Of a stretch of 64,000 nucleotides of DNA, positions 15,483 to 64,000 are shown piece by piece. The notes beneath the pieces were generated by a model that did not search any database, had not been told where the DNA came from, and worked only from the letters and a program-made list of their open reading frames with translations. Source of the stretch: Octopus vulgaris (taxonomy: Eukaryota); assembly GCA_951406725.2 (NCBI GenBank), contig OX597817.1, positions 156,674,001 to 156,738,000 of the forward strand. The letters are read 5' to 3'. Made by a program: the position numbers and the translations under genes. How positions within the stretch are numbered: position 1 is the first letter of the stretch; the number at the start of each line of letters is the position of its first letter.

Positions 15483-15575
15483 AGCTTGTTAGCCATAGAA
15501 CTACTGAACTTGCACAAGCAAGAGACCGACTTTCTGAAGAAATGGAGAGTAACCAACACACGCCATCAGCGACGG
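15483..15575 (+). CDS. small phase-1 coding exon (ELVSHRTTELAQARDRLSEEMESNQHTPSAT) of the large + strand gene; possibly also a terminal exon by read-through to TAG at 15581-15583
   Basis: Strong polypyrimidine acceptor TTTTATTATTTTCAG|AG. 93 nt (31 codons), open, and GC-richer than the flanks. Donor ACGG|GTGTGT. Same phase 1-1 as the other exons. Confidence 0.65.
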
Positions 15576-19940: not shown

Positions 19941-21916
19941 TTTCATTTTTTTCCTCTCCTACTATTTACCTTTCTATTATCTAATAAACTGCTACATATT
20001 TGGAGCCCAGAGAGTTAAATGATAAATACCTGTGCAATTTTTTTGATCAGTTTGACATTCTCACCTGACTGAAGAGTTCTTATATATAACATTGTTATAT
20101 TTTATCGTTTCAAGCATAAATTGCCTTTTTACTAATCTCAAAGATTGTATGGACAAACTTTTCTCTGCCTACTCCTCACTTTTATTTCTTTTTTTTTTTA
20201 TTTCTCTCTTTCCTTTCTCTCCTCGTGTGTAACACATTCTCTATCTCTCTTGATCTATTATATATATATATATACATATATACACACACTCACATATATA
20301 TATACATATACATACATGTTTGTGTGTTTATGTATGCATGTACGTGTATTTATATAGGTGTATATGTGTATACATAAATACACACACTCTGCACATTTGT
20401 GTGTATATATATATATATTTATGTATGTATGTATGTATGTATGTATATACACATACACACACTTGCTCTCTATCTGTGTCTCTTTCTTTCTATTTCTTAG
20501 ACTTTCTCATGTCCTGCTAGGCAGCTTGGCTTAGCTTTGCCAAGTTCCACTGCAATGTTGCCTCATATTGCTGCATGCTTTACTATTGTTTTAATTTTTT
20601 TTTTTGACATTTTTTCCTCCTCCTCCTTCTCCTTGTGTCTTTCCTTCTTCCATATACATGTTGTCATTTCATGTGTAATATGAATAAATTTGATGTGCCT
20701 TTTTGTATTGCTCTTAATATTATGTTTGTTTATTCTTAACATTAAACAAAGCAAAAAAAAATTGAACGAAAAGCAAAATCTTCCTGTTTAAGTTGATGAT
20801 GTTGTTAGTTATTGTCTTGATATATATATATTCTGTAATATATATATAGTATATATAAATATTTATATATACCTATATATATTTACTTTGGTTTACACCA
20901 AGAGCATCCATCATAGATTAATAACTTAGTCATATTGTTACATACTGTTAAAAGATAGATATTTAATTTAACTACATTTTTAAAAGTATTTAATGTTTCT
21001 AATTTTCTTGTGTATTTATTGATCTCATAGGGAAGGGACTGCTTTGTAACATGGCTTCCTTTAATATATTTCATCACTAAAAATTTTCCTATTCTGTTTA
21101 AAACAAAATCCAAAAAAAAAAAAAAAAAAAGTAAAATTGAGAGAACGCTAACCATTTGCAATATGTACTAACATCTTCTCATCTCTCACTCTCTGAGTTT
21201 CACACAGCATTTATATTTCCATATTTTTAATTCTTTCCATTCTAAATCTAACGAATCAAAAGTCATCTCTCAAGCTATTAACATTTAAAGTGCATCTTTC
21301 TTAACTCCATTAATTCTTAAAAAGTTTTCTTCCTTGATTGTTGCTTTGGTGTGAACCAATTTATTTGCATAAATCACATCCGATTCATAACTGGGTAAAC
21401 ACTAAACATATACAACTGAATAACATAACCTTGGGTAAAACTCATTTAATACAAAAGCTGCTGTGTCTAATGCACATGCATATATATATGTGTGTGTGTG
21501 TACATGTATATATATGTGCAAGTATATATATAATATGTACATATATATACATATATGTATTATAATAATTTTTTAATACTACTAAATAAATGGTGAATAT
21601 TACTGCATGAAAAATGCAAAACTGATAAATTACCAAATAAGGATATAAGCAATATGAGCGACTTAAAATGCATGGATATTCACAATTGGCCACTTGTTAC
21701 ATAACAAATCTCAGAAGGAAGATAATGATGCCTGGCCTCATGAATGATAATTAACTGAAGATTAATTTATCATTAACTTAAAAGAGTTCCATTTCTTCAA
21801 GGCTGCAAGAATGCATGCTGCCATTTTGGTCAATGGCCAAGCTCTGTGGGATGGACTTCAATCAAAACTGTTCCCTATAGAAATTAACTGTTATTTGTGA
21901 ATGTGTGATTTTCCAG

Positions 21917-24900
21917 AGGCAGACATTGCAGATGGCCAAATGATAACTCATGACTACACACTTGACAGTTCCTTTGAAAGCCAACGGATTCCTGATGACT
22001 CTGAATTGCAGAGTGTTGAAGTAGAAGATATCTATTATGAGCGCTCCTTAACTCCGTTGTTAGGAAGAGAATCTGATATGGTATGGAGAAATGAATGCCA
22101 GCAGAGGGATAGGAAAAATTCTTATCTCTCTGAGAATTTTCAGGAACTTGACAGTGTGTGCCGTCAAAATTATCTCCCACAACTGAGGCATTTTCACAGA
22201 GAAACAGATGAGTTTTCTTCCACTCAATCCATGCTAATTGATTCCAGATATTCAATGTCTTCGAACTTGAAAGAGAAGCCTTTCAACCTAAATTCACACA
22301 TTCATGATGAGTCCTTACATGAAGAGGAATCAATCGTTTCACATGCGGAGACCTGCCATTCCATATCAAATATATCGGATGATTACGATAACAGTTCCAC
22401 GTCCTCCTGTATTACTGTCGTTGCTGTTGATACACCAGCTATCCAAAGTTCCAATGCTGAACAACTTGACCCAGTATTAGGCTCCTGTGAAACAAATTTA
22501 GTTCCAGAGAAGTGTCCAGAGATTGAAACTAGTTCCAATGATACACGCATTCATTACAAAGCACCATCTCCGCAGCAAATGAACAATTTCAGGCCACCCA
22601 TTTTTCCCTTTCCTCCCCATCCAATGTATTCTAATGCATATAACTATGGTGGAATGCCTTGGTATATGTCAGGTACAGGCAAAAGCTTCCCACACATGTA
22701 CAACCATCACAAAAGTCTTCCAGGCATGTATGACTACAATAGAATGCCTTCTCACAAGCATTACTCAAACAGAAATGCTGAAGACCCCTATGACTTTGAT
22801 AACATGTCTGAGTACTCGTGTGTCCTGGACAGAAATTCTATGGACACACATGACATAGGCAGTAAGTCACGCTACTCAAGTGAGCAAGATATAAACTCAC
22901 AGAGTTCAGGTGGATATAACCTAAAAAGAGAATCTCTGGAAACAGTTGGCATAGACAGACAGTCTGTAGATACTTTCAATGCAAAGAGGAAATCTCTTGA
23001 CACTAGCTGTGACAATGTATCTCAAGATACCTTTAACTCTGATTCTTCACATAAAAAGGTATCTGGTTGTGTGCAACATGCTCCAAGCACATTCAGTTAT
23101 GACAGTAACTCACTGGATATTTATAAGGATGATAGCATGAGATTTCTTGATACCTATGACATTGAGCCTTTGTCACCAGACTCGGATTGCTATAGCTCGA
23201 CTTCTGATTTGTACAAGCGTGACAGCATGCCATCCAATAGATATGATACCAATGAAATGAATTCTATCAGAATGAGCCTTAGTTCACAGGACAGTATCAC
23301 AATGCTATCAGACACATATGACTCTGGTAGAATGACTCCAGATGTGTATGACTCACATAAGATGACAGCTAATGCAAATGACTCATGTAGAATAACAGCT
23401 GATTCATATGACTCTCATAGAATGACAGCTGATCCATATGACTATCGTAGAATGACAGCTGATCCATATGACTCTCGTAGAATGACAGCTGATTCATATG
23501 ATTCTCGTAGAATGACAGCTGATTCATATGACTCTCGAAGAACGACAGCTGATCCATATGACTATCGTAGAATGACAGCTGATCCATATGACTATCGTAG
23601 AATGACAGCTGATCCATATGACTCTCGTAGAATGACAGCTGATCCATATGACTCTCGTAGAATGACAGCTGATTCATATGACTCTAGTAGAATGACAGCT
23701 GATTCATATGACTCTCGTAGAATGACAGCTGATCCATATGACTCTCGTAGAATGACAGCTGATTCATATGATTCTCGAAGAACGACAGCTGATCCATATG
23801 ACTCACAGAGAATGACAGCCGATTCATATGATTCTCATAGAATGGCAGCTGATTCCTATGACTCACATAGAATGACAGCTGATACATGTGATTCTTATAG
23901 AATGAATGCTGATATGTGTGACTCACATAGAATAACAGCTGATACATGCGACTCACGTAGAATGACAGCTGATACATGTGACTCACGTAGAATGACAGCT
24001 GATACATGTGACTCGCGTAGAATGACAGCTGATACATGTGACTCACGTAGAATGACAGCTGATACATGTGACTCACGTAGAATGACAGCTGATACATGTG
24101 ACTCGCATAGAATGACAGCTGATACATGTGACTCACGTAGAATGACAGCTGATACATGTGACTCACACAGAATGACAGCTGATACATGTGACTCACGTAG
24201 AATGACAGCTGATACATGTGACTTGCATAGAATGACAGCTGATGCATGTAACTCTCATAGATTGGCAGCTAATGCATATGACTCTCATAGAATAGCAGCT
24301 GATACTTATGACTCACATACAATGACAGGTGACATGTATAACTCAGGTACAATGACAGCTGGTACATATGACTTGTGTAGTGTGATATCTGATACATATG
24401 ACTCCCATCAAATAACAGCCAATAGATATAACCTCCGTAGAACAACAGCTGACATATATGACTCTAGTAGAATGACCACTGATACAGATGACTATAATAC
24501 TGTGTCTCAGGATTCCTATGATTCTGGCAGACTGTCACCAGACTCGTATGACTGTCATAGTTTGTCACAATATATGTATGACTATGAAAGACATTCACCA
24601 GATACATACAGCTTAGATCAAATGTCTGCAGATTCATGCTGTGAGGAAGAATATGATGAAGTCTTTTCCTCACAAAATAATGCATTGGATACAGACACTG
24701 CTCCAGACTTCTATTGTTCCAGAACCTTACCTGGGTCATTTAAAGAAAACCCTGCACTTCTTCATAGTAATATTTACAAACCAAGGAGTTCCTTTAAAAA
24801 GTGTAACAACCAGCAGCTACCTGTTAGAAATATGTATAACATGTTGCCCTCTCGGGGCTATCATACACCTGTTATTCCTAACAGAGGTTCAATGTTCTAC

Positions 24901-27025
24901 AGAAGGTTTAATACTGGAAGCTGTTGTGATGATAGTGATGAGAGTGATGTTTTGTCACTTGAAAGTCTAATTAATGATGATCCCAATGAGAGGAACAGTG
25001 ACACAAATGGCACTGATGGTCTGTTTGTAAGCAACCATAATTTAGGGTTATTTTCTGATCTGCAACATAGACTTAGCCAGACAAAGGACAAGGGCATACC
25101 CAACTGTGATGACTTCATATACCCAACAAGTGCTAGGAATCAACGGTTTTCTAGTCAAAATGCTTTCAATGTTGATAAAACAATTCCTAGCAAGTTCGCT
25201 AATGATCAGAATAATATGCTATGGAACAAACGTAATATTCCACTATATAGCAGCTCTTGTTACAATGATTACAATGCTGACCGCAGGACTGTAGAAATGG
25301 GTGCCCATAACAGTGACCAGGTGTATCAACAGTCAAAAGGTTCTCATTTCCAGAATGACCACTTGAAGTGTTACAACTCAGAGAAGCCTGATTCAAAAAA
25401 TAGCTGCCTATTGCCTTCTCAGTCTAAAGACTCTATACAAAGTCTACAAAACATTGACAATTATGGCCCTATGTTACCCCCTCCCCCCTACAGTGGCCCT
25501 AAATCAAACTTATCTTTCAAAGGTTATGACAGGCAGTACCCTTATTCTAACAGGTCTAACAACCATAACCATTACCCATGCATGTTTGACCAACACTGTC
25601 CAACAATACCAAGTTATAACAGTGAGGATGGTGATCACATGTCTTTTAATAGTTCTGACGAGAAAAGTCTGAATAGCAAAACTTTCCATCAGTTAAATAA
25701 TCCAAGCTTCACTCGTAAAAATTTCCATGATTTCTCAAAGAGCATGTCTACATTAGAATCTGAGAACAGAAGTACAAGTTTTCCTCGACGTTCTACCAAT
25801 GCAGGAACTTATGACTCCAGTCAGTCTTTAGATTTGCACCCTAGGTATGAAAACGATCCCCCAACATTTGGAGCTTCTACAAATGAAAGATTATTCAAGC
25901 CCCTTCAGAAGGAAAACTATGTGTACAATTGTTCCAGCCGTTCTTCAAGTCTGGCAAGATATCCCAGTAATGTTACACAAATGTCTGATTCTGATACCCC
26001 ATATTCTAACATCTTGGATAATAGTTGCTATACAGGTTTCAGAAGTAACAAAATGCCTTATCTAAACTCACCATGTGGTCCGAATTGGTTTGGCTTGCAA
26101 GAAATTCCTTTCTCTTTCCAAAGTTTTCCTCCTTTTGGTACCCGCACCTCCAGATCTGGTCTTAGTAATCACTTCGGTAAGAAACAAATTCTTTATGACT
26201 TCACTAAACCATTTTCTAACCAGTTTTTCTCTCTTGGAATGGTCTCAAATATGATGGATGAAAATTCTTTGAAGACCAAAGAATTACTAAGTGGACCAGT
26301 AAAGGGTTCAGACAATGTATGCTCACACAGAATTCCCCAAATGGATAACCGTTTTTGTTATAAATTTCCATTTGATGATACTGTCTCATCTGGGAATTCT
26401 TCAAGTAGGTATAAAGGCTGTTTAAAGAAAATATCTTCTGATATATCATTAGAACATGAACCTATTCAGATTCCATCTAGGCAAGAGGTATCCAAGTCAT
26501 CTGTAACACCTGGGAATGGTAAAAACTGTCATGCAGTGATGCAGCAGCTAAATCCTAAACAAACTTTCCCATTGACATATTCTGTTGGTTCTTTGTCTCT
26601 GTTGGATTTTGAAATATTCAGAGTGGAAGAAAAAGTAACTTTTGAAAGACCCAAATTGGAAAGCCTGTCTATTATAAGAGGACAGAAAGCCCGTTCTTTC
26701 ACTGATGTGTCTTGTAGTTTTGATGCCCTTGATGGTCAAGCTGGTGGAAGCATCTGTGATATTCCTATGGTAGATGTTCAGACACTTGCAGTACCACCAT
26801 GCACTATAGAAGATGTAACTTCCTCATGTCTTTGTGATAAGGTTAATGTTAAAGATGCTACTACAGCTTCTCAAGTCAAAGTAATACCTTTAGAAGAATC
26901 AGATTTGTTCACACAAGAATTTGAGATAGCTCCACCCAAAGAAGAATATATGTCCATCCTACGTGGTTGTGCTGCCAAGTCCAATCAAGATGTGTTTCTA
27001 CATGAAGGTCTAAGTGTCAGCAAAG
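21917..27025 (+). CDS. giant phase-1 cassette exon (5109 nt, 1703 codons), Ser/Asp/Tyr/Met-rich disordered polypeptide with 10-aa tandem repeats; probably part of a giant ankyrin-like gene
   Basis: ORF 21901-27042 (1713 aa). An in-frame TGA sits immediately before the ATG. Acceptor GTGATTTTCCAG|AG at 21916 and donor AAAG|GTAATT at 27025 give a length divisible by 3. A standalone intronless gene cannot be excluded. Confidence 0.8.
23311..24480 (+). repeat. coding 30-bp tandem repeat (MTAD[P/S/T][Y/C]DSRR)
   Basis: AGAATGACAGCTGAT[CT]CATATGACTCTCGT units in exact 30-nt register. About 28 highly similar units at 23401-24240, with degenerate units on both sides. Confidence 0.95.
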
Positions 27026-27372
27026 GTAATTATGGATTTTAAGCTGTAGTACCTCGCCAAACCATTGACAGAAACCATAAAACATTACAAAGAACACCCA
27101 AGCCACTTGCTAATATTCATATCCATAAATGTAGAAAAATAACTCATTTTTGCAAGTGCTTTAGAAGTACTGCTACAGAATTTAGGTAATTAAATATCTT
27201 GCTCAAGTAGGATTTTAATCATAGCATCAATGTTCTGATATTTTGTACAAAATATTTGGCCACTACATCATGCATCTGACATCAATAGTATCATGAAAAC
27301 ATTTTTTGGATAACTGCTTATTATGTGGGTTACATCTTCAGTATTAATTTCAGTCTCTCTCTCTCTCTCTTT

Positions 27373-34936: not shown

Positions 34937-35283
34937 TTAAGTACTTTCTCTTCCATTTGTACATCATGAATGTACATTAAAATAACATTGTAGAGAGAGA
35001 GAGAGTGTGTGTGTGTGTGATATGTGAGGTAAGCATGATTACATATCCAGACCAAGGTTTAGTTCATTTGACCTTTTGGTTGACTGCACATGTCCGTAGA
35101 CTGAGAACTGAAAAGAACAACAGAAGAAACTTTGGTGTTTGTATATGTAACCTGTGTGCCTAACATTTGATAAATACATGTCTGACTCTACTTATAGCAC
35201 AAGGACATATTGAGCACTCACATGACTTTGTACAACAAAATGTATATGTGTGTGTGTGTGTATGAATAGCTGTTGCTTATATA

Positions 35284-35833
35284 CAGGGTGTCCCCCAAAA
35301 ATTGACATCATTTTGTTGTCTAATAACATAGCCACTTCTCGCTCAAATTATCTCAAATTTTAACAAAATGTGTAAAATCTAAGTTTGGATTAGGCATACG
35401 AGTGATAAGGACAATGTGCTGTTGAAATGGCCACCACATTCACCTGACTGGATACCTTGTGATTTTTTTTTCTATGGGTCTATGTAAAAAGGCTGGTCTA
35501 TATCTCACCTCTTCCTACATGCCTAGAAGAACTCAAGTAGAAAATCACTGAGGTGCTGGAGAATGTTTCACAACACATGCTACAGCATGTTTGACAGGAG
35601 CTGGACTATCGAATTGATTTGTGTCCTGTCACAGGTGGTGCACATATTGAACATTTGTGAAACTATGTGAAATCAGTTATAAGATCTACACCCCTCTAAA
35701 TCTCTTGTTCAAATTTTGATAAATGAATCTTTTATTGTTCAACATGAAGCCTATTTAATTTCGTATACTTTGGACATGTAATTACTCAGATATTCACATT
35801 TCAAATGATGTCAATTTTGGGGGCGACACCCTG
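35284..35833 (+). mobile_element. internally deleted Tc1/mariner-superfamily element
   Basis: ~30-bp TIRs CAGGGTGTCCCCCAAAAATTGACATCATTT / AAATGATGTCAATTTTGGGGGCGACACCCTG with TA flanks. The interior retains a broken transposase C-terminus WPPHSPDWIPCDFF..W.YVKRLVY...GGAHIEHL. Confidence 0.85.
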
Positions 35834-36627
35834 TATATTATAGGCTAATATCATTGGATAATTACTATCTCTATGTATAAATGATATAACAACCACCAGT
35901 AATGTTGCAGTGTTCTTCAAAAATAGCAAAGAAATTATCACTGACCATTTACAGAGACCAATGAATGGCATCAGATACATTGATGGAAGTCACTCTCCAC
36001 TGAGACAGATGACTTCCTGTTAGCAATCAGGGTGGCAAAATGGGATGAGGTGAATTAGGGAATTTGTTGAGGATTCTTCACTCTGTTTAGGAAAACCGAA
36101 GTTGCTTCTTTCCAACTCTGTTGCACCACTTCTTTTTACACTTGTTCATTGCTATTCTAACTTCACATCATTCTTCTCAATGTGATCTAACACTTTCTCA
36201 ATTATGCAATCTCTATATGCAGACTAATTATCTCTTATTGCTCAACTTTGGTTGTTTTCTGTATTTCCAACTTATTACTCAGCAAATGTAGTTAAATTAT
36301 ATTTTTGTTTTGTTTACAGTTTCCCCTTTATGCATACACACTGATATAAGTAAGTGTATGTTGGCAAATTTTATTTTGTGTGTGTATGTAAGTATATATG
36401 TGTGCGTATATATACACACGCATACTTACAAAGCATTCACCCATGATCCATAAATCACATACATCCTTGATATCTGGTGGTATTCATGTGTCTTCTATTG
36501 TCCATCCATAACAGTGTCTTTCTCAATTCAATTCTGATTAGCTTATCTCTCTGGTCTCTTCCGGTCTGGATTATTGGCTTATCATTTTTCAGCCATTAGT
36601 AACCTTTCAGTAATTTTTGCTTTACAG

Positions 36628-39600
36628 GCCGTTGGAAACGTGCCAATGCTATGAAAAGAAAAAAACACAAAAAAAAATCACCCAGTGGTGCACAGATAGA
36701 ACGTGAGGCTGCGAGAGTAAAATCCCCTGGAATAGAGAATAAGGTAGAAGGTGAAGTTTTCAGAACCCCTCCTACAGAAAAGACTGATGTGGAAGAATAT
36801 GAAAAGGTTTTGGAGGATGGTACTATGTACCATGTTAAGCGAATCCGAAAGCATTCACTGTCTCGTGTTAAGAGAAAAATTGTTTCAGAAGATGGTACTG
36901 AAAGATTGGTTGAGGAAAACATTGATATACCTGGAACAGAGACTATTGACAGTATTGAGACTTTTGAACAGCCACCTCGTTCTGTAAGTGTGATTGAAAA
37001 AGTAACAGAAGAACTTCCTTCTGGTAAGGTGGTTGAGCGTAAGATGCAGAATGTTCGAATGGTGCACAAGATCAAGACAACGCACAAACACATTGACCCA
37101 GACCAGACTATCAAATTTGAGGAATATGAAATGGATGAGGTAGTTCCTGGTACAGAAACTTGCTTTTACATTGATGATAAGTCTAATGTTGATGCCAATA
37201 GAACTACTCAGAAGCCTCAGATACCTATTGACAAAAATCTATATCGTGTAGATTTACCATTTGAGCTGGAACGCTTTTACCATGTTGATCAAGACAGGCA
37301 GCAAAAAGAACAGAGTCCTCTTAACCATGTTGAAGTAACTGATGGCCAAATGGTCAAAGGAACTGTTGAACTGCATGTTGATCAACATATCCAGGAAAAG
37401 ATTCAGAAGCCAAACACCAAAGATATCAGACGTATTGAGTTACCACAAGAAGATTCATTCCAAGATAATAATTTCACATCTGATCAAGTTGACAACCAAA
37501 CTCTTGAAACATTCATGTGTAAAAATGTTCCGAGTGCGAAAATGTCAGTTGGTCAGGATCATGTTGATTTGCCAGTGGATACAGATGATGTACATGAAGA
37601 TCTACCAGCTGCTCAAAATGTCAGACGATCTCTTGGTGAAGGTGTCTATCATGTAGACCAGCCTGTTGCTTTGGAAACTTTGCACCGTGTTGAGAAACCT
37701 TCCTTTCAAAGTGGAGAGTATCCTATTGATCAATCAGTTGATAGCATTGAACCAGTTGATGCCAACATTGCGTATAGTCAACAAATTCCATCTGATCAAG
37801 ATTATAACATTGGAAAGCTGTCTGCTCCAGATATTCCACATGTAGAAATTACAAAAATTGAAGATTATGATGAATATTATGATGTACCAGCTGGTGAAGT
37901 GCTGCCAGATACTAAAGTTACCAAACCTACTGGTCCATTTGGTGTCTACCATGTTGATCTTCCAGTGGATCTTGAACAATTACATCGTGTTGACCCACCT
38001 TCCCGTCCAGTCAGCTCTCAAGATATTGACAAATCACTTACTCAAGCTGACATCCCAACTACTCAAGACTTCCCAGAAGGTATTGAACACACTATTGGAG
38101 AGTATCGTACCACACCTGTTGATGTTTTCCAGGTCAAGATCACCAGCTACCTGTTGAGCCACTCTCTCGTAAAGACATTCCTGTAGTTGAGTCATCTCTT
38201 GATCAAATTCATCAGCATGTCCCTATTCCTACTGATCAAAATGTCAGACGCTCGGTTGGTGGAGGTGTATATCATGTAGACCAGCCTGTTGCTCTGGAAA
38301 CTTTGCACCGTGTTGAGAAACCTTGCCTTTCAAAATGGAGAGTATCCTATTGATCAATCAGTTGATAGCATTGAACCAGTTGATGCCAACATTTCGTATA
38401 GTCAACAAATTCCATCTGATCAAGATTATAACATTGGAAAGCTGTCTGCTCCAGATATTCCACACGTAGAAATGAGGAAACCTGAAGATCATGATGAATA
38501 TTATGATGTACCAACTGGTGAAGTGCTGCCAGATACTAAAGTTACCAAACCTACTGGTCCATTTGGTGTCTACCATGTTGATCTTCCAGTGGATCTTGAG
38601 CAATTACATCGTGTTGACACACCTTCTCGTCCAGTCAGCTCTCAAGATATTGACAAATCACTTACTCAAGCTGACATCCCAACTACTCAAGACTTCCCAG
38701 AAGGTATTGAACACACTATTGGAGAGTATCGTACCACACCTGTTGATGTTGTCTTCCAGGTCAAGATCACCAGCTACCTGTAGAGCCACTCTCTCGTAAA
38801 GACATTCCTGTAGTTGAGTCATCTGTTGATCAAATTCATCAGCAAGTCCCTATTCCTACTGATCAAAATGTCAGATGCTCGGTTGGTGGAGGTGTATATC
38901 ATGTAGACCAGCCTGTTGCTCTGGAAACTTTGCACCGTGTTGAGAAACCTTCCTTTCAAAATGGAGAGTATCCTATTGATCAATCAGTTGATAGCATTGA
39001 ACCAGTTGATGCCAACATTTCGTATAGTCAACAAATTCCATCTGATCAAGATTATAACATTGGAAAGCTGTCTGCTCCAGATATTCCATACGTAGAAATG
39101 AGGAAACCTGAAGATCATGATGAATATTATGATGTACCAACTGGTGAAGTGCTGCCAGATACTAAAGTTACCAAACCTACTGGTCCATTTGGTGTCTACC
39201 ATGTTGATCTTCCAGTGGATCTTGAACAATTACATCGTGTTGACCCACCTTCTCGTCCAGTCAGCTCTCAAGATATTGACAAATCACTTACTCAAGCTGA
39301 CATCCCAACTACTCAAGACTTCCCAGAAGGTATTGAACACACTATTGGAGAATATCGTACCACACCTGTTGATGTTTTTCCAGGTCAAGATCACCAGCTA
39401 CCTGTAGAGCCACTCTCTCGTAAAGACATTCCTGTAGTTGAGTCATCTCTTGATCAAATTCATCAGCAAGTCCCTATTCCTACTGATCAAAATGTCAGAC
39501 GCTCGGTTGGTGGAGGTGTATATCATGTAGACCAGCCTGTTGCTCTGGAAACTTTGCACCGTGTTGAGAAACCTTCCTTTCAAAATGGAGAGTATCCTAT

Positions 39601-42600
39601 TGATCAATCAGTTGATAGCATTGAACCAGTTGATGCCAACATTTCGTATAGTCAACAAATTCCATCTGATCAAGATTATAACATTGGAAAGCTGTCTGCT
39701 CCAGATATTCCATACGTAGAAATGAGGAAACCTGAAGATCATGATGAATATTATGATGTACCAACTGGTGAAGTGCTGCCAGATACTAAAGTTACCAAAC
39801 CTACTGGTCCATTTGGTGTCTACCATGTTGATCTTCCAGTGGATCTTGAGCAATTACATCGTGTTGACACACCTTCTCGTCCAGTCAGCTCTCAAGATAT
39901 TGACAAATCACTTACTCAAGCTGACATCCCAACTACTCAAGACTTCCCAGAAGGTATTGAACACACTATTGGAGAGTATCGTACCACACCTATTGATGTT
40001 TTTCCAGGTCAAGATCACCAGCTACCTGTAGAGCCACTCTCTCGTAAAGACATTCCTGTAGTTGAGTCATCTCTTGATCAAATTCATCAGCAAGTCCCTA
40101 TTCCTACTGATCAAAATGTCAGACGCTCGGTTGGTGGAGGTGTATATCATGTAGACCAGCCTGTTGCTCTGGAAACTTTGCACCGTGTTGAGAAACCTTG
40201 CTTTCAAAATGGAGAGTATCCTATTGATCAATCAGTTGATAGCATTGAACCAGTTGATGCCAACATTTCGTATAGTCAACAAATTCCATCTGATCAAGAT
40301 TATAACATTGGAAAGCTGTCTGCTCCAGATATTCCACACGTAGAAATGAGGAAACCTGAAGATCATGATGAATATTATGATGTACCAACTGGTGAAGTGC
40401 TGCCAGATACTAAAGTTACCGAACCTACTGGTCCATTTGGTGTCTACCATGTTGATCTTCCAGTGGATCTTGAACAATTACATCGTGTTGACCCACCTTC
40501 TCGTCCAGTCAGCTCTCAAGATATTGACAAATCACCTACTCAAGCTGACATACCAAGTACTCAAGACTTCCCAGAAGGTATTGAACACACTATTGGAGAA
40601 TATCGTACCACACCTGTTGATATTGTTCCAGGTCAAGATCACCAGCTACCTGTAGAGCCACTCTCTCGTAAAGACATTCCTGTAGTTGAGTCATCTGTTG
40701 ATCAAATTCATCAGCAAGTCCCTATTCCTACTGATCGGAATGTCAGACGTTCTGTTGGTGGAGGTGTATATCATGTAGACCAGCCTGTTGCTCTGGAAAC
40801 TTTGCACCGTGTTGAGAAACCTTCCTTTCAAAGTGGAGAGTATCCTATTGATCAATCAGTTGATAGCATTGAACCAGTTGATGCCAACATTTCGTATAGT
40901 CAACAAATTCCATCTGATCAAGATTATAACATTGGAAAGCTGTCTGCTCCAGATATTCCATATGTAGAAATGAGGAAACCTGAAGATCATGATGAATATT
41001 ATGATGTACCAGCTGGTGAAGTGCTGCCAGATACTAAAGTTACCAAACCTACTGGTCCATTTGGTGTCTACCATGTTGATCTTCCAGTGGATCTTGAGCA
41101 ATTACATCGTGTTGACCCACCTTCTCGTCCAGTCAGCTCTCAAGATATTGACAAATCACTTACTCAAGCTGACATCCCAACTACTCAAGACTTCCCAGAA
41201 GGTATTGAACACACTATTGGAGAATATCGTACCACACCTGTTGATATTGTCCCAGGTCAAGATCACCAGCTACCTGTAGAGCCACTCTCTCGTAAAGACA
41301 TTCCTGTAGTTGAGTCATCTCTTGATCAAATTCATCAGCAAGTCCCTATTCCTACTGATCGGAATGTCAGACGCTCTGTTGGTGGAGGTGTCTATCATGT
41401 AGACCAGCCTGTTGCTCTGGAAACTTTGCACCGTGTTGAGAAACCTTCCTTTCAAAGTGGAGAGTATCCTATTGATCAATCTGTTGATAGCATTGAACCA
41501 GTTGAAACCAACATTTCGTATAGTCAACAAATTCCATCTGATCAAGATTATAACATTGGAAAGCTGTCTGCTCCAGATATTCCATATGTAGAAATGAGGA
41601 AACCTGAAGATCATGATGAATATTATGATGTACCAACTGGTGAAGTGCTGCCAGATACTAAAGTTACCAAACCTACTGGTCCATTTGGTGTCTACCATGT
41701 TGATCTTCCAGTGGATCTTGAGCAATTACATCGTGTTGACCCACCTTCTCGTCCAGTCAGCTCTCAAGATATTGACAAATCACTTACTCAAGCTGACATC
41801 CCAACTACTCAAGACTTCCCAGAAGGTATTGAACACACTATTGGAGAATATCGTACCACACCTGTTGATGTTGTCCCAGGTCAAGATCACGATCTACCTG
41901 TAGAGCCACTCTCTCGTAAAGACATTCCTGTAGTTGAGTCATCTGTTGATCAAATTCATCAGCAAGTCCCTATTCCTACTGATCGGAATGTCAGACGCTC
42001 GGTTGGTGGAGGTGTATATCATGTAGACCAACCTGTTGCTCTGGAAACTTTGCACCGTGTTGAGAAACCTTCCTTTCAAAGTGGAGAGTATCCTATTGAT
42101 CAATCAGTTGATGCCAACATTGCGTATAGTCAACAAATTCCATCTGATCAAGATTATAACATTGGAAAGCTGTCTACTCCAGATATTCCACATGTAGAAA
42201 TGAAGAAACCTGAAGATCATGATGAATATTATGATGTACCAACTGGTGAAGTGCTGCCAGATACTAAAGTTACCAAACCTACTGGTCCATTTGGTGTCTA
42301 CCATGTTGATCTTCCAGTGGATCTTGAACAATTACATCGTGTTGACCCACCTTCTCGTCCGGTCAGCTCTCAAGATATTGACAAATCACTTACTCAAGCT
42401 GACATCCCAACTACTCAAGACTTCCCAGAAGGTATTGAACACACTATTGGAGAATATCATACCACACCTGTTGATGTTGTCCCAGGTCAAGATCACGATC
42501 TACCTGTTGAGCCACTCTCTCGTAAAGACATTCCTGTAGTTGAGTCATCTCTTGATCAAATTCATCAGCAAGTCCCTATTCCTACTGATCGGAATGTCAG

Positions 42601-45600
42601 ACACTCGGTTGGTGGAGGTGTATATCATGTAGACCAGCCTGTTGCTCTGGAAACTTTGCACCGTGTTGAGAAACCTTCCTTTCAAAGTGGAGAGTATCCT
42701 ATTGATCACTCAGTTGATAGCATTGAACCAGTTGATGCCAACATTTCGTATAGTCAACAAATTCCATCTGATCAAGATTATAACATTGGAAAGCTGTCTG
42801 CTCCAGATATTCCACACGTAGAAATGAGGAAACCTGAAGATCATGATGAATATTATGATGTACCAACTGGTGAAGTGCTGCCAGATAGTAAAGTTACCAA
42901 ACCTACTGGTCCATTTGGTGTCTACCATGTTGATCTTCCAGTGGATCTTGAACAATTACGTCGTGTTGACCCACCTTCTCGTCCAGTCAGCTCTCAAGAT
43001 ATTGACAAATCACTTACTCAAGCTGACATCCCAACTACTCAAGACTTCCCAGAAGGTATTGAACACACTATTGGAGAATATCGTACCACACCTATTGATG
43101 TTGTCCCAGGTCAAGATCACGATCTACCTGTTGAGCCACTCTCTCGTAAAGACATTCCTGTAGTTGAGTCATCTCTTGATCAAATTCATCAGCAAGTCCC
43201 TATTCCTACTGATCGGAATGTCAGACGCTCGGTTGGTGGAGGTGTATATCATGTAGACCAACCTGTTGCTCTGGAAACTTTGCACCGTGTTGAGAAACCT
43301 TCCTTTCAAAGTGGAGAGTATCCTATCAATGAATCAGTTGATAGCATTGAACCAGTTGAAACCAACATTTCGTATAGTCAACAAATTCCATCTGATCAAG
43401 ATTATAACATTGGAAAGCTGTCTGCTCCAGATATTCCACACGTAGAAATGAGGAAACCTGAAGATCATGATGAATATTATGATGTACCAACTGGTGAAGT
43501 GCTGCCAGATACTAAAGTTACCAAACCTACTGGTCCATTTGGTGTCTACTATGTTGATCTTCCAGTGGATCTTGAACAATTACGTCGTGTTGACCCACCT
43601 TCTCGTCCAGTCAGCTCTCAAGATATTGACAAATCACTTACTCAAGCTGACATCCCAACTACTCAAGACTTCCCAGAAGGTATTGTACACACTATTGGAG
43701 AATATCGTACCACACCTGTTGATATTGTTCCAGGTCAAGATCACCAGCTACCTGTAGAGCCACTCTCTCGTAAAGACATTCCTGTAGTTGAGTCATCTGT
43801 TGATCAAATTCATCAGCAAGTCCCTATTCCTAATGATCGGAATGTCAGACGCTCTGTTGGTGGAGGTGTATATCATGTAGACCAACCTGTTGCTCTGGAA
43901 ACTTTGCACCGTGTTGAGAAACCTTCCTTTCAAAGTGGAGAGTTTCCTATCAATCAATCAGTTGATAGCATTGAACCAGTTGAAACCAACATTTCATATA
44001 GTCAACAAATTCCATCTGATCAAGATTATAACATTGGAAAGCTGTCTGCTCCAGATATTCCATATGTAGAAATGAGGAAACCTGAAGATCATGATGAATA
44101 TTATGATGTACCAGCTGGTGAAGTGCTGCCAGATACTAAAGTTACCAAACCTACTGGTCCATTTGGTGTCTACCATGTTGATCTTCCAGTGGATCTTGAA
44201 CAATTACGTCGTGTTGACCCACCTTCTCGTCCAGTCAGCTCTCAAGATATTGACAAATCACTTACTCAAGCTGACATCCCAACTACTCAAGACTTCCCAG
44301 AAGGTATTGTACACACTATTGGAGAATATCGTACCACACCTGTTGATATTGTTCCAGGTCAAGATCACCAGCTACCTGTAGAGCCACTCTCTCGTAAAGA
44401 CATTCCTGTAGTTGAGTCATCTGTTGATCAAATTCATCAGCAAGTCCCTATTCCTAATGATCGGAATGTCAGACGCTCTGTTGGTGGAGGTGTATATCAT
44501 GTAGACCAACCTGTTGCTCTGGAAACTTTGCACCGTGTTGAGAAACCTTCCTTTCAAAGTGGAGAGTTTCCTATCAATCAATCAGTTGATAGCATTGAAC
44601 CAGTTGAAACCAACATTTCATATAGTCAACAAATTCCATCTGATCAAGATTATAACATTGGAAAGCTGTCTGCTCCAGATATTCCATATGTAGAAATGAG
44701 GAAACCTGAAGATCATGATGAATATTATGATGTACCAGCTGGTGAAGTGCTGCCAGATACTAAAGTTACCAAACCTACTGGTCCATTTGGTGTCTACCAT
44801 GTTGATCTTCCAGTGGATCTTGAGCAATTACATCGTGTTGACCCACGTTCTCGTCCAGTCAGCTCTCAAGATATTGACAAATCATTTACTCAAGCTGACA
44901 TACGAAGTACTCAAGACTTCCCAGAAGGTATTGAACACACTATTGGAGAGTATCGTACCACACCTGTTTATGTTTTTCCAGGTCAAGATCACCAGCTACC
45001 TGTAGAGCCACTCTCTCGTAAAGACATTCATGTTGTTGAGCCATCTGTTGGTTACATTGGTCAGCAAGTCCCTATTCCTACTGATCAAAATATCAGACGC
45101 TCTGTTGGTGGAAGTGTTTATCCTGTTGACCATCCTGTTATTCCGGGAACTTTGCACTATGTTGACAGAGAGTATCCTGTTGGTCAGTCAGCTGATACTA
45201 CTGAAACAGGTGATGTCACTCTTCTTCATGGTCGACAACTTCTACCTGATCAAGATTATAATATTGAAATACTCTCTCCTCAAGATATTCCACAGGTACA
45301 AATGTCCAAAACTAAAGATAATTTTCAGTATCATGATCTGCCAGCCAGTAAACAACTGCAAAGTATTGATGTGGCCAAACCTAGTGGTCCATTTGGTGTT
45401 TATCATGTTGATCTTCCAGTGGATCTAGAACAGCTACATCGTGCTGCCAAACCTTCTTCTCAAGGTGGCTCTCAGCCTGTCGATAAACCAGCAGGCAATG
45501 CTGACGTCACTACACATCATGATACCCCAGAAATTATTGGACAGTCTATTGGAGAATATCATACAACACCTGATCTTCCTACTAGTCAAGGCCAATTGCC

Positions 45601-48600
45601 TACTAAACAAGATGATCATATAATCAAACAGCCCATTGCTCCAGGTGTTCAATATAATAAAATATCCACTCAAGATACTGATGCTGTTCATATTCCCACT
45701 GACCAATATGGCCAGCCTATTTCTCCATCCACTGCTCAAGATGATCATGGTAATAGACTGTCCATTGGTGCAGGTGTTTATCATGTGGATGTTCCAAGTA
45801 ATCTTGAACAACTACACAGAGTTGACCAACATAGTCAGCTGAGACCTACAAGCGATATTGATCAACCTACGCATCAGGATGTACAAGGTAACATTGGTTT
45901 ACGTGCTGGTCAGGATGTTGAAAACAATGTTGTAATACCTGCTCCTGAAGGCATTCGTAGTGTGACTGTGGTTTCTACTCCAGGAATACATCATATGTCC
46001 TCTCAAATTGTAGATATGCAGTCTCCTGTCACATCCTCTGACCTGAAATTTCCACTTGCTCAGGAACAGTATACTGGTGAAGGTATTCCAGTTCCCACAA
46101 GTCGAGATCAACTTAATAAGGCAGATATTCACATTGGTGAAGGCCAAGAGCTGTCAAGTATTGAGCAGCTCGCAGATAAAGGTAGTTCCAGTGTTGATCC
46201 ACGTGGTTTTGCTTTACCATCCAATAAAGGCAATACATACATTGGTGGGTTACCAGTTCATGCTGAGCTTCCTACTAGCCAAGAGGATCATCGTGATGGT
46301 CTTTCAACTAATCGGCCTTCCTTCCATAGTGACACCCCAACAGGTGGTTCACGCCTGCATCACGTTGACCACTCCACCGGTCAAGATAGTTGCAAGCCCA
46401 TTGACTTATCTGTTGATCAAGATCCTTTAGTTGACAATTTTCCTGCCGATCAGTACTGCTATTATGTTGACCCCCCTATAACCGAAAAAATTTCCCTTGC
46501 ACATGAAACTACTGACCTATCCACGAACAAACATATACCTCTACATAGTTTTCATCTGTCCACTGGTCAAGATGTTCATCAACATCTTCCTCTTCAGGCT
46601 CATCAAGTTGAATTACATCATGATGATTCTCGAACTGAAGATGGTAATCAAGATACTAACAAAATTGTTGGAGTTCATTGTGATAAAGTATCTGCTGGTG
46701 GTCAGATTCTAACCACGGTCCTGACATCTGACAGTGATGTTGGTCACCTTCGAGAGGAAGATCATAATGTTGATGGAAGTGTCAGTTCAGATGGGGCTGT
46801 CCCTAGCATTCAGGCACAAGTACAAAATCTCAATGTCACCTCATGCCAAGGACAGCTCAAAAAAGATGACCTATCCAGTGGGCAAGATAAGTTCAAGTCA
46901 GTTCAAAATACTGGTCAACATAGAGATGACCATGAATGTCGGTATGGCCTCAAACATACTGACCAACATGGAGATGACCATGAATGTCAGTATGGCCTCA
47001 AGCATACTGATCAAGATGATGATCATGAATGTCGGTATGGCCTCAAACATACTGACCAGCATGGAGATGACCATGAATGTCGGTATGGCCTCAAACATAC
47101 TGACCAGCATGGAGATGACCATGAATGTCGGTATGGCCTCAAACATACTGACCAGCATGGAGATGACCATGAATGTCGATATGGCCTTAAACATAGTGAC
47201 CAACATGGAGATGACCATGAATGTCGGTATGGCCTTAAACATACTGACCAGCATGGAGATGACCATGAATGTCGATATGGCCTTAAACATACTGACCAGC
47301 ATGGAGATGACCATGAATGTCGATATGGCCTTAAACATAGTGACCAACATGGAGATGACCATGAATGTCGATATGGCCTCAAACATACTGACCAGCATGG
47401 AGATGACCATGAATGTCGATATGGCCTTAAACATAGTGACCAGCATGGAGATGACCATGAATGTCGATATGGCCTTAAACATAGTGACCAACATGGAGAT
47501 GACCATGAATGTCGGTATGGCCTTAAACATAGTGACCAACATGGAGATGACCATGAATATGGCCTCAAACATACTGACCAACATGGAGATGACCGTGAAT
47601 GTCGGTACGGCCTCAAAGACAGTGAACAACAACAAGATGACTTTCAATGTCAATATAGCATCAAATATATTGACCAACATAGAGATAACAAAGAATGCGA
47701 GTATAGCCTCAGACATACTGACCAAGGTAATGTCTTTGAATGTCAGTATGACCTCGAACATAGTGACCAGTATAGGGATGATCAATACTGCTTTTATATT
47801 AACCCCCCTGTCACCGAACAAATTTTCCTTGCACCTCAAACTGCTGACCCATCTGTGTCCAAACATGTTCCTCTACATTGTTTTCATCTGTCCACTGGTC
47901 AAGATGTTCAACAACATATTCCTCTTCAGTCTCATCAAGTTGATTTACGTCATGCTGATTCTCAAACTGGTGAAAATGGTAATCAAGTTGGTGACAAAAC
48001 TGTTGACATTCATTGTGATAAAGTATCCACTGGTGGTCAGATTCTAACCACTGTCCTTACGTCTGACAGTGATGCTGGTCACCTTCAAGAGGAAGGTGGA
48101 ATAGTCTCTGTCGTCCAGACACATGTACAAAAGAACCTCACCTCTGAGGGAGCTCAATCGCAAAAAGATGACCTTTCCACTGGACAAGGTCAGTCCAAGT
48201 TAGTTCAAGGTACTGAACAGCAGGGCACTGAATATAGCTTTGGACAAGGTCTTCAACAGAGCAGCAGCACTGAATGCAAGTATACTTTTGAACATACTGG
48301 TCAATCAGGTGAAAGTAGTAGCTATAACATTGAACAAACACACATCACACACAGTTTTCCAAAATCTGATGAGCTCTCTGGTCATCAACAGGGTGACGTA
48401 TCCATCCTCCATCTTTCCACCCAACAACCCGATGCACCTTCTAGTAGTCGCTCTCAAAGTAGCACTACTCAGCAAGGGGACATTTCATATTCCACTCACA
48501 TATCATCTCAGTCAACTTCAGACCAAGATACTCTCCAATTCCAAGACTCTCGCACACCGACCGTTCTATCTGACCCCACTAAAGAGGTCACAACAAAAAA

Positions 48601-48656
48601 GTCTTCACGGAAATCTCGTAAATCAAATCGTAAGAAGAAAAAAACATCTTCACAAG
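36628..48656 (+). CDS. giant phase-1 exon (~12 kb, ~4009 codons after correcting three indels) encoding a repeat-rich disordered region; probably giant ankyrin-like
   Basis: Acceptor TTTTTGCTTTACAG|GC at 36627 and donor CAAG|GTAATT at 48656. ORFs 36651-38186, 38289-38783 and 38930-48784 are one repeat-continuous reading broken by -1 (~38128), +1 (~38326) and +2 (~38754) indels relative to the other repeat copies. 12029-2 = 12027 nt = 4009 codons. Confidence 0.8.
37614..45085 (+). repeat. coding 624-bp (208-aa) tandem repeat, 12 near-identical units plus a degenerate 13th to ~45600
   Basis: Units begin CAAAATGTCAGACG/CGGAATGTCAGACG at 37614, 38237, 38864, 39488 ... 45086. One unit is 606 bp (18-bp deletion near 42110). 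Confidence 0.95.
46919..47770 (+). repeat. coding 48-bp (16-aa HGDDHECRYGLKH[T/S]DQ) tandem repeat
   Basis: About 15 close copies plus 3 degenerate copies, seen in both the DNA and the 3284-aa ORF. Confidence 0.95.
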
Positions 48657-55469: not shown

Positions 55470-55640
55470 CCCGTCTCGCTGTGGCGGGGAAAACACCCAC
55501 CATAACTATCACCGAGGACAGCAGCAGCCCCCATCATGACGATGATGATGAAGAAAGCGATGATTATCTCCGCTTTATCGAAAAGCATCAGCAAAAAATG
55601 CAACAGCAACAACAACAAGCTGCTGCTGCTGTTGACAAAG
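55470..55640 (+). CDS. phase-1 cassette exon (RLAVAGKTPTITITEDSSSPHHDDDDEESDDYLRFIEKHQQKMQQQQQQAAAAVDK)
   Basis: Acceptor TTGTTACTTTCAG|CC, donor AAAG|GTTAGA, 171 nt open and GC-rich. An alternative in-frame acceptor at 55430 gives 210 nt. Confidence 0.8.
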
Positions 55641-59359: not shown

Positions 59360-60160
59360 CATCTTTATATATAAACAGTACCAGGTTCTCCATAGAGATC
59401 AGTATTGCCACAATAACAGCCCTTCTATGCAGGTCAATTTGTCAGAGGTACAATGTCAAAAGGATTACATTAATTTAAAAGATAGTGGTGTGTGGTTCTC
59501 TCTTCTCAAGCTCTTTCTGTCTGTCTCTTTCCATTTCCTTTTCTTCAAAAAAAAAAAAAAAAATCACAGCAAACAACAAAACAAACTCAGTTCTATATTA
59601 AAATCTAGTAGTGATTATTCTGATTTTTAAAATCTAGGAATAATTTGGTGTCCAACAATAATTTTTAAAAAATTTACTGAAATTTATAGAGCATTGGATC
59701 AATATTCCTGATCAGAGTTTCAACCTTGAGACATAAAATTAAAACTGAGATTCAGTTTTTAAAATAAAAACGAACTGCGTTTCTTTTGAAAATTGTTTTT
59801 TGTCTTTGAAGTTTTTCATCTCATATCTTCCTAAATACCACCATAAAAGCCTGCTAAAACTAAATAACTGATTGTTTCTATTTTGTACATTTGTTTTTGT
59901 TTTTTTAGCAACTGACCTCTTTTTTTCCTTCTTGTCATCTAAACAGTTTTTGGTCTTCCAGTGGGTGTTTTTAACAGTTTTATATTGCACATTGATTTAT
60001 TTTTCATTTCTGTATCACTTTTCACATGTGTATGTGTGTATTGTATCACTTTTTATTCTTTACCTCCCTACTGTTGTTTGGTGTCTGTTTTTCGGGTTAT
60101 CATTCGTCTGTGTATTTCTATTTAAGTCGGTGTATTGACAAAACCCTTCTCTACTAGCAG

Positions 60161-60223
60161 GTCAAGAGCCAACCACCACGACCACCACCACAGTGTCTTC
60201 TGAAGGCCATGGGGAAGAATCAG
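60161..60223 (+). CDS. 63-nt phase-1 exon (GQEPTTTTTTVSSEGHGEES)
   Basis: Acceptor CCCTTCTCTACTAGCAG|GT (TAGCAG tandem), donor TCAG|GTAATG, 21 codons open. Confidence 0.8.
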
Positions 60224-63084: not shown

Positions 63085-64000
63085 ATGATGAGAGTGAGGG
63101 TAAAACAAGATCAGTCGCTTCTATTATTCAAATGTTTGAGCAAACATCTGACACTGCTTTGCAAAGTTCAGCTACAGACATTGTTCGTGAAGTCCAGAAA
63201 TCAGCACAAGCAACGTTACGCAAAGAATCTCAGGAATTCGTAAAGCAAGACTCTTCTGAGTGGGTTGTCATTGACGACAGCGATCTTGATGGCTTTGATG
63301 CAGAAAAGGTGCCATCAGCCAATGGTACTTATGTTGAAACAGAAGATTCTGCTCCAAAGGTAGAAGAATGGGTAAAAGTCTCTGCTGTCAAAGAGAAATT
63401 TGAGGACAAAATTAAGAATGGCTCCATGTCTGAAAAAACTATTATACGTGAAGCCACCAAAGTTCACACAAGCACTTTAGCAAAACATAAATCTTCAGAG
63501 AAAGCTGATGATGTTGATCAACCTTACGGTGTCCCGGAACCGCCCGACGCCCACTTTAAGACTCCCTCAGATGATGAAAATCTTGAATTTTCTGAGAAAT
63601 TGAAAATGTTTACTGGTAAACATGCCCAAAATTATTATGTCACAACTCAACCTGATGAGTTATTAAGCTCTGATGAAGAAACACCAGACACTACCTCGAA
63701 AGGAAGTGAAAGGTCATACCAAACTGCATCTGAAACGAGTGAAATCCGATCTGAAACTGTAAAAGTGTCTTCTACAGGAGAGCAAAAAAGTGAAGTCGTT
63801 GAAGAACGACGCGAAAGCACTTCATCACTGATTGCCAAGTTTGAGGAAGCTACAACTCGTGAAAAGCCGTCAAAGAAAGAGGCCATGTCATTTGACAAGG
63901 ATAGCAAAGAAACAGTACAAAAAGAAGTGACAAAATCTTGGAAAACTGATTCTTCTCAAAGTGCAGTCCAGGAGATAAAGGAAAGTCACGTATTCCAAGA
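63085..64000 (+). CDS. 5' part of a third large phase-1 exon, running off the window; giant-ankyrin-like (LIR motifs, S-V-x-x-h-x-x-x-F-E motifs)
   Basis: Acceptor CCCTTGATAG|AT, open for all 916 nt: DESEGKTRSVASIIQMFEQTSD...KQDSSEWVVIDDSDLDGFD...KVEEWVKVSAVKEKFEDK...STSSLIAKFEEATT...ESHVFQ. Absent from the ORF track, presumably because it has no stop inside the window. Confidence 0.85.

What the first reader, a model, noticed from the sequence alone, without database searches (positions are those of the whole stretch)
37614..45600. Twelve near-identical 208-aa coding repeats with an internal duplicated motif
Seen: 624-bp units, Pro/Asp/Val/Gln/His-rich. Each holds two related motifs, GVYHVDQPVALETLHRVEKP and GVYHVDLPVDLEQLHRVDPP. 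Older diverged single copies flank the array (LYRVDLPFELERFYHVDQ near 37240; GVYHVDVPSNLEQLHRVDQ near 45775), so the YHVDxPxxLExLHRV motif is conserved while the spacers drift. I do not recognise the unit as a known domain. Established: Drosophila Ank2-XL carries a long array of 76-aa repeats implicated in microtubule organisation and axon calibre. Inference: an independently evolved multivalent binding or ruler array with about 27 copies of a short linear motif.
Basis: partly seen in the sequence, partly recalled or inferred. Interest (0 to 1): 0.75.

Follow-up and report, generated by a model that had tools for sequence, protein, structure and literature searches.

The report
Extra giant exon in octopus ankyrin
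The repeat array is real and lies in a 12-kb exon of this octopus's ankyrin gene, an exon that is short in other molluscs; it likely encodes a long unfolded spacer carrying 28 copies of a conserved short motif whose partner is untested.

Summary
Confirmed: twelve 624-bp units (93-99% identical), a diverged 13th unit and 28 motif copies. Unit 8 is 606 bp, and three small indels break the frame in units 1-2 (likely assembly errors). The array lies in a 12,029-nt exon (36628-48656) of the genome's only detected ankyrin gene, downstream of collinear ANK, ZU5-ZU5-UPA and death-domain exons. The exon starts with a predicted all-beta module without a Pfam match, which other molluscs encode on a 240-350-aa cassette. 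In octopus, internal repeats appear to have turned that cassette into an extra long exon. It lacks the Ser/Glu bias of classical giant-ankyrin exons; two such exons lie downstream. O. bimaculoides has the same 208-aa unit (85% identical). Within the array units drift neutrally (pN/pS about 1), but the two motifs are 40/40 identical between species against 136/168 for spacers. Best reading: a disordered spacer with periodic binding motifs, working like fly Ank2-XL repeats. Partner, tissue and the splice to the ankyrin core are not shown. Repeat arrays in giant ankyrins are known, and longer units occur in insects. The scan had not noted this before.

The parts
36628..48656 (+). Long cassette-type exon of the ankyrin gene, 12,029 nt as assembled, phase 1 at both ends; 4,009 codons if the net +2 of three indels is error
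   Evidence: Acceptor and donor read from sequence. The 3' joint matches O. bimaculoides models. Two RNA-guessed contigs begin at 36627 with 28 unaligned letters.
36756..37169 (+). Predicted all-beta module of about 140 aa, shared with mollusc and nemertean ankyrin tails
   Evidence: AlphaFold2 mean pLDDT 88.8 with 29 sequences; in 20 of 121 ankyrin-core proteins; no Pfam family over cut-off; best structural Z 6.4.
37236..37295 (+). Diverged single motif copy before the array
   Evidence: YRVDLPFELERFYHV identical in O. bimaculoides.
37641..45112 (+). Twelve near-identical 208-aa units, each with two motifs (A at residue 1, B at residue 101)
   Evidence: halves 39/93 identical.
38127..38127 (+). 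-1 indel in a T run of unit 1 (likely assembly error)
   Evidence: contigs of all 4 runs laid carry an extra letter at 38124-38128, but they pool many units.
38326..38326 (+). +1 indel in unit 2 (likely assembly error)
   Evidence: The sequence is the union of two variants found in other units.
38752..38753 (+). +2 indel in unit 2 (likely assembly error)
   Evidence: The sequence is the union of two variants found in other units.
45113..45832 (+). Diverged 13th unit (motifs at 45113 and 45395) and last motif copy (45773)
   Evidence: 232/262 identical to O. bimaculoides.
46903..47769 (+). Second array in the same exon: 18 x 48 bp, a 16-aa His/Asp/Cys/Tyr unit
   Evidence: also in O. bimaculoides.
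15483..15575 (+). Candidate 93-nt phase-1 exon that may precede the array exon (inferred)
   Evidence: Weak profile match (E 2.6) to the mollusc segment just before the module; shares exactly one letter with the intron end, as the contigs require.
55470..55640 (+). Next small exon
   Evidence: O. bimaculoides residues 1979-2034, 96% identical.
60158..60223 (+). Small exon with two tandem acceptors
63085..64000 (+). Start of a classical Ser/Glu-rich long exon (about 7.1 kb, runs beyond the window)

Best explanation
The array is part of a 12-kb exon inside the octopus ankyrin gene and likely encodes a long, unfolded, acidic spacer that displays a conserved 20-residue motif every 100-108 residues, likely as repeated binding sites for an unknown partner. 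Shown: position in the gene, exon order, conservation pattern, composition. Inferred: (1) the exon is an optional cassette spliced between the death domain and the two classical long exons, giving an ankyrin of roughly 11,600 aa; (2) it grew from a 240-350-aa mollusc cassette by duplication of a ~100-aa motif-plus-spacer unit, fusion to a 208-aa unit and homogenisation by unequal exchange; (3) the ankyrin head anchors at the membrane-spectrin cortex while the tail reaches into the cytoplasm, the spacers giving length and the motifs avidity, as proposed for fly Ank2-XL; (4) the three indels are consensus errors.
For: Gene: 21 collinear exons cover 855 residues of a scallop ANK domain; ZU5, UPA and Death confirmed by Pfam, ending 27 kb before the window on the same strand; only UPA found in the genome (a floor). 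Oyster, mussel, scallop and snail ankyrins map in order: core, then window 36768-37166, then exons downstream, to the last exon at C4:156788028; three more small post-DD exons are collinear. O. bimaculoides models join this exon to all downstream exons. The module segment is optional among Mytilus and Pomacea isoforms (237, 274 or 345 aa). Spacer: pN/pS 0.99 (17 synonymous, 55 non-synonymous changes); net charge -0.10 per residue, 12% Pro; disordered side of the charge-hydropathy line; no confident fold (pLDDT 37, single sequence). Motif: 40/40 against 136/168 between species; all 31 fully identical 20-mers lie in two blocks over the motifs. Homogenisation: neighbours more alike than distant units (97.8% against 96.4%, rho -0.52). 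Splicing: contigs of two RNA-guessed runs from two studies begin at the acceptor and leave the intron uncovered, where a DNA-type run reads through.
Against: No read or model joins the exon to the ankyrin core: 13 of 15 listed O. bimaculoides models start at a Met inside this exon and 2 inside the array, and none carries the core. The exon fails the composition typical of long exons (S+E 14%, S/E/T/D/K/P 45%, against about 25% and over 55%). It evolves fast (82-85% identity to O. bimaculoides against 95% for the start of the next long exon). Motif variants exist in the array (H to R in 3 units, H to Y in 1). Only two species were compared, and local gene conversion could also keep blocks identical. 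A low single-sequence AlphaFold score is weak evidence, and the charge-hydropathy test also calls the folded module disordered. A third RNA-guessed run (X1) covers the intron. Contigs pool the units, so the indels are not shown to be errors. Tissue is unknown.
Confidence: 0.55

Rival explanations
1. A tolerated, largely neutral repeat expansion in a disordered ankyrin tail: only length or nothing matters, and the motif blocks stay alike through conversion or chance.
For: pN/pS about 1; unit no better conserved between species than its flanks; Jegla 2016 found repeats in only some long exons and not conserved over distance.
Against: Motif conserved between species and among six diverged copies; no stop among 72 variant changes (P about 0.07, weak).
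Confidence: 0.25
2. The exon is mainly the start of a core-less tail protein from an internal promoter, translated from the Met before the Lys-rich patch, and is not part of a full giant ankyrin.
For: O. bimaculoides models begin there; a second, fuller copy of the module exists as a separate terminal exon on C30.
Against: The frame is open to a phase-1 acceptor; the homologous segment is internal in 20 of 121 core-bearing proteins; those models also start inside the array, which suggests a fragmented annotation.
Confidence: 0.1
3. The repeats bind microtubules directly, like the 12-aa repeats of mammalian giant ankyrin-B.
For: Ankyrin long-exon repeats bind or organise microtubules in mammals and flies.
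Against: Those repeats are basic (pI 10.6); this unit has pI 4.5 with 16 K+R against 37 D+E and no SxIP. The Lys-Ser-Pro repeats of the next exon are the better candidate.
Confidence: 0.04
4. The indels are real, so this allele ends at 38186 after about one unit, or the exon is decaying.
For: Three indels as assembled, net +2; neutral drift.
Against: All three fall at the two sites where units differ, and two are unions of both variants; units 3-12 are open for 10 kb; the orthologous unit is in frame.
Confidence: 0.06

Closest known systems
Protostome giant ankyrins with long exons after the death domain (Jegla et al. 2016, PMC5135030)
   Same: Canonical core, long exons downstream of the DD, repeat arrays inside them.
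   Different: Their S4 Table lists at most two long exons and units of 12-76 aa, and no cephalopod; here three long exons are supported (a fourth long ORF is untested), the unit is 208 aa, and this exon lacks the Ser/Glu bias.
Drosophila Ank2-XL (93 x 76-aa repeats)
   Same: Homogenised array in a long ankyrin exon, proposed as a spacer; its repeat region is needed for microtubule organisation.
   Different: Different unit length and composition; no arthropod ankyrin fetched hits the array; the fly protein itself was not aligned.
O. bimaculoides LOC106881226 models ('titin-like', XP_014787059.1 and isoforms)
   Same: Orthologous exon, module, motif, 208-aa unit, 16-aa array and downstream exons.
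   Different: Models lack the ankyrin core and show 7 motif copies each, with different starts, so their copy number is unresolved; they have an extra segment of about 130 aa.
Mollusc ankyrin module cassette (Mytilus, Pomacea, Saccostrea, Dreissena, scallops; Tubulanus)
   Same: Same module at the same place in the gene.
   Different: 237-345 aa and without the motif; the octopus copy lacks the module's C-terminal part and continues into repeats.
Insect ankyrin tails with long-period repeats (Chelonus P0101, Cataglyphis P0090)
   Same: Near-identical units over 200 aa: 232 aa x about 3.8 and 369 aa x about 2.9.
   Different: Fewer copies in the records seen (search limited to 2339-5000 aa); unrelated sequence.

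Membership tests
Canonical bilaterian ankyrin gene | N-terminal array of 24 ankyrin repeats | tested here: met
   21 collinear exons cover 855 residues within 14-879 of a scallop ankyrin; Pfam Ank in 3 of 4 ANK-region pieces scanned. Repeats were not counted one by one.
Canonical bilaterian ankyrin gene | ZU5-ZU5-UPA cassette | tested here: met
   First ZU5 77 bits; second ZU5 piece 19.6 bits, under the cut-off of 21, but collinear at 72-76% identity; UPA in two exons.
Canonical bilaterian ankyrin gene | Death domain | tested here: met
   Pfam Death 45.7 bits at C4:156642461-156642676.
Canonical bilaterian ankyrin gene | Array exon lies between exons homologous to known ankyrin isoforms, in order and on one strand | tested here: met
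Canonical bilaterian ankyrin gene | A transcript joins the array exon to the core | tested here: inconclusive
   Splice-like contig starts at the acceptor, upstream letters not seen; O. bimaculoides models lack the core.
Classical protostome giant-ankyrin long exon | Over 3 kb and downstream of the DD | tested here: met
   12,029 nt, 63 kb after the last core exon.
Classical protostome giant-ankyrin long exon | S+E about 25%, S/E/T/D/K/P over 55% | tested here: not met
   14.3% and 44.6%; the two downstream long exons give 28.9/64.8 and 28.8/59.0. Filed therefore as an additional exon, not the classical one.
Classical protostome giant-ankyrin long exon | Unbroken reading frame | tested here: inconclusive
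   Three indels as assembled, likely errors.
Classical protostome giant-ankyrin long exon | Neuronal expression and axonal localisation | not testable with these tools
   Runs are coded and carry no tissue.
Ank2-XL-type repeat | Sequence homology to arthropod ankyrin tail repeats | tested here: not met
   15 of 191 proteins held hit the array, all O. bimaculoides; the fly protein was not among those held.
Giant ankyrin-B microtubule-binding repeat | Short basic repeats | tested here: not met
   pI 4.5, 208 aa against pI 10.6, 12 aa.
Any solved fold (5' module) | Clear structural match | tested here: inconclusive
   No Foldseek match at E<=0.001; best Z 6.4, rmsd 3.2, 62 aligned.
Vertebrate ankyrin obscurin-binding segment (5' module) | Sequence or structural homology | not tested
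   Resemblance recalled only; search listing seen, no sequence compared.

The most novel reading that the evidence does not exclude
Octopuses built a new giant ankyrin exon from an old short cassette. An undescribed beta-sheet domain found in mollusc and nemertean ankyrins is followed by 28 copies of a new linear motif at a 100/108-residue pitch, so one splice choice adds about 4,000 residues and a multivalent docking strip to an ankyrin of about 11,600 aa. It would be a traceable case of how ankyrin long exons are born, and a handle on axon or muscle cortex architecture in cephalopods.
Probability: 0.3. Interest if true: 0.65.

Novelty: new variant of a known kind. Interest (0 to 1): 0.42.

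Why it matters
Jegla 2016 left the origin of second long exons in fly, beetle and Aplysia ankyrins unclear. Here a long exon can be traced to a short conserved cassette, with older diverged copies still flanking the young array. The conserved motif and the unannotated beta module are concrete baits for finding partners of invertebrate giant-ankyrin tails. The work also re-files O. bimaculoides 'titin-like' models as the ankyrin tail. Against high interest: repeat arrays in giant ankyrins are established, units over 200 aa occur elsewhere, and no function is shown.

Tried and rejected
Pfam on the unit and exon parts: 0 families at E<=1 for 4 of 5 pieces, one sub-threshold hit for the fifth. PDB sequence search of the unit: best E 0.15; of the module profile: best E 0.0014, a designed protein matched on a short hairpin. 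ESM Atlas: no usable hit for unit or module, which shows neither absence nor novelty. Search of 1839-5854-aa proteins with the array end: none of 7085 candidates passed. No RNA holder listed on record. A second laying of reads, meant to show the upstream exon's letters and other individuals, gave no result, so the joint to the core and copy-number variation stay open. Idea that the motif derives from a strand of the module: 21 of 500 shuffles and 3 of 40 unrelated windows score as high; rejected. LIR-like and YxxP words in the unit: one each, changed in the diverged copies; not pursued. 'Largest repeat unit in any ankyrin': rejected. No solved fold stood out for the module. Literature: no paper on cephalopod giant-ankyrin exons in searches (open-access library only); Stephan 2015 was not held. 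Jegla's S2 Table (sequences) was not read and may contain the module in Aplysia or Lottia. Earlier scan notes: none near, none by sequence, five unrelated by words.
Full report
Observation. Twelve units start at 37641 to 44489 with a 624-bp period. Unit 8 lacks 18 bp. Pairwise identity is 93.4-99.4% and falls with distance. Each unit holds two related motifs 100 and 108 residues apart, and the halves are 39/93 identical, so the unit is an old duplication. A diverged 13th unit and two single motif copies flank the array, 28 copies in all. The unit matches nowhere else in the 2.8-Gb genome. Three indels break the frame in units 1-2. All lie at the two sites where units differ; two are unions of both variants and one is a short T run, the pattern expected when reads of different units are merged (inference). 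Contigs of all 4 runs laid have the missing letter near 38126, but they pool units. In DNA-type run X4 the repeat contig is 9.2 times deeper than the unique one, against 8.4 expected; this is weak support, as the tool says depth is no copy number.

Context. The 166 aa before the array hit 2 of 830 candidates, one a Dreissena ankyrin. That protein maps ZU5-ZU5-UPA-DD exons to C4:156610847-156647352, same strand, 27-63 kb before the window. Pfam confirms Ank, ZU5, UPA and Death, 21 collinear exons cover the ANK domain, and no second UPA was found. Of 11 ankyrins mapped (10 mollusc, 1 nemertean), 9 hit window 36741-37166, and 10 hit exons further downstream, in order. Three small post-DD exons continue to C4:156663300. 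A search of 1.84 billion representatives gave 38 hits, the best a 7,658-aa protein, named O. bimaculoides 'titin-like' LOC106881226. It joins this exon to 55470, 60158, 63085 and on to the last ankyrin exon. The window is therefore from an octopus, and the array is inside its ankyrin gene.

The exon. Acceptor at 36628 and donor at 48656 are both phase 1; 12,029 nt minus the net +2 gives 4,009 codons. Contigs of X13 and X15, guessed to be RNA and from two studies, begin at 36627 with 28 unaligned letters and leave the intron uncovered apart from repeats, while X4 reads through; X1, also guessed RNA, covers the intron. The upstream letters were not shown. A 93-nt candidate at 15483-15575 resembles, weakly (E 2.6), the mollusc segment before the module and fits the one shared letter. 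The joint to the core is thus inferred, not shown. Of the 15 O. bimaculoides models listed (19 in the cluster), 13 start at a Met in this exon and 2 inside the array. With all mapped exons the protein would be about 11,600 aa (about 1,950 core, 4,009, and 5,680 downstream; estimate).

Origin. The 5' module occurs in 20 of 121 core-bearing proteins, 19 molluscan and one nemertean. In 4 isoform pairs from Mytilus and Pomacea it sits in an optional 237-345-aa segment. With 29 sequences AlphaFold2 predicts a nine-strand beta structure at pLDDT 88.8, with no Pfam family over cut-off and no clear PDB fold. The octopus exon keeps this head and extends it with motif repeats and a 16-aa array. It lacks the Ser/Glu bias that Jegla 2016 calls the most conserved feature of long exons, whereas the two downstream long exons have it, and one shares blocks with oyster and mussel tails. 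It is best read as an additional, lineage-specific long exon.

Selection. O. bimaculoides has a full 208-aa unit, 176/208 identical, so the unit predates the split, and window units are closer to each other than to it. Within the array there are 17 synonymous and 55 non-synonymous changes, pN/pS 0.99. Between species the motifs are 40/40 identical and spacers 136/168 (p=0.001); another O. bimaculoides copy has one change in the B motif. Four of 47 variant codons with amino-acid change fall in motifs (p=0.04). The unit is acidic (pI 4.5), Pro-rich, without SxIP, and gives no confident model.

Mechanism. The most likely reading (0.55) is a disordered spacer with periodic binding motifs in an optional giant ankyrin tail, working like the fly Ank2-XL array, which is proposed as a spacer and is needed for microtubule organisation. 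A neutral expansion (0.25), a core-less tail protein (0.10), real frameshifts (0.06) and direct microtubule binding (0.04) are the rivals. The partner and tissue are unknown.

Comparison and novelty. Jegla 2016 (PMC5135030; seen: abstract, parts 1-4 of 10 of the main text, passages, S4 Table) lists units of 12-76 aa, at most two long exons, and no cephalopod. Weber 2019 (PMC6703079), Chen 2020 (PMC7401806) and Prokop 2020 (PMC7337489; author name recalled) were seen as passages. Stephan 2015 is cited only through them. Among the 120 best of 2,855 long ankyrins listed, Chelonus and Cataglyphis have 232- and 369-aa near-identical units in 3-4 copies, so the unit size is not unique. Searches found no paper on this exon. 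Verdict: real, explained at gene level, a new variant of a known kind; interest 0.42.

Noticed in passing
window 36756-37169: Predicted all-beta module of about 140 aa without Pfam or clear PDB match, conserved in mollusc and nemertean ankyrin tails; looks like an undescribed domain.
   Followed up: partly
L022:2950-3790 (G000:C30:11732950-11733790, - strand): A separate terminal exon with a fuller copy of the same module; no ankyrin core exon was hit in the 100 kb fetched around it. The rest of that gene was not traced.
   Followed up: partly
window 21901-27042: 1,713-aa ORF inside the ankyrin locus with 39 x 10-aa repeats, ending in a stop; possible phase-1 acceptor at 21917; no hit among 191 proteins held. 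May be an alternative terminal long exon.
   Followed up: partly
window 46903-47769: 18 x 16-aa His/Asp/Cys/Tyr repeat in the same exon, also in O. bimaculoides; Cys and His content suggests possible metal binding.
   Followed up: no
L012:63-7223 (G000:C4:156737063-156744223): Classical long exon with a long basic Lys-Ser-Pro-Ser-Pro repeat tract, a better candidate for microtubule binding than the 208-aa array.
   Followed up: no
L014:8306-10000 and L015:1-7572: Third long exon (about 9.2 kb) with Thr-rich 10-aa repeats and blocks conserved in oyster and mussel ankyrins, including four SLxEFExLE-like motifs.
   Followed up: partly
L016:3728-4678: 317-aa ORF with a Tyr-Asp-Gly-Gly-Asp-Ala-Thr heptad repeat near the 3' end of the ankyrin locus; not seen in the O. 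bimaculoides model that was read.
   Followed up: no
window 35031-36676: One RNA-guessed run (X1) has a contig over the intron that ends just inside the exon, deeper than the exon contig; unexplained (unspliced RNA, DNA or another transcript).
   Followed up: no
L018:376-5736: Fragments of LTR-type (reverse transcriptase, integrase) and LINE-type retrotransposon ORFs downstream of the gene; names are from recognition, not from a search.
   Followed up: no
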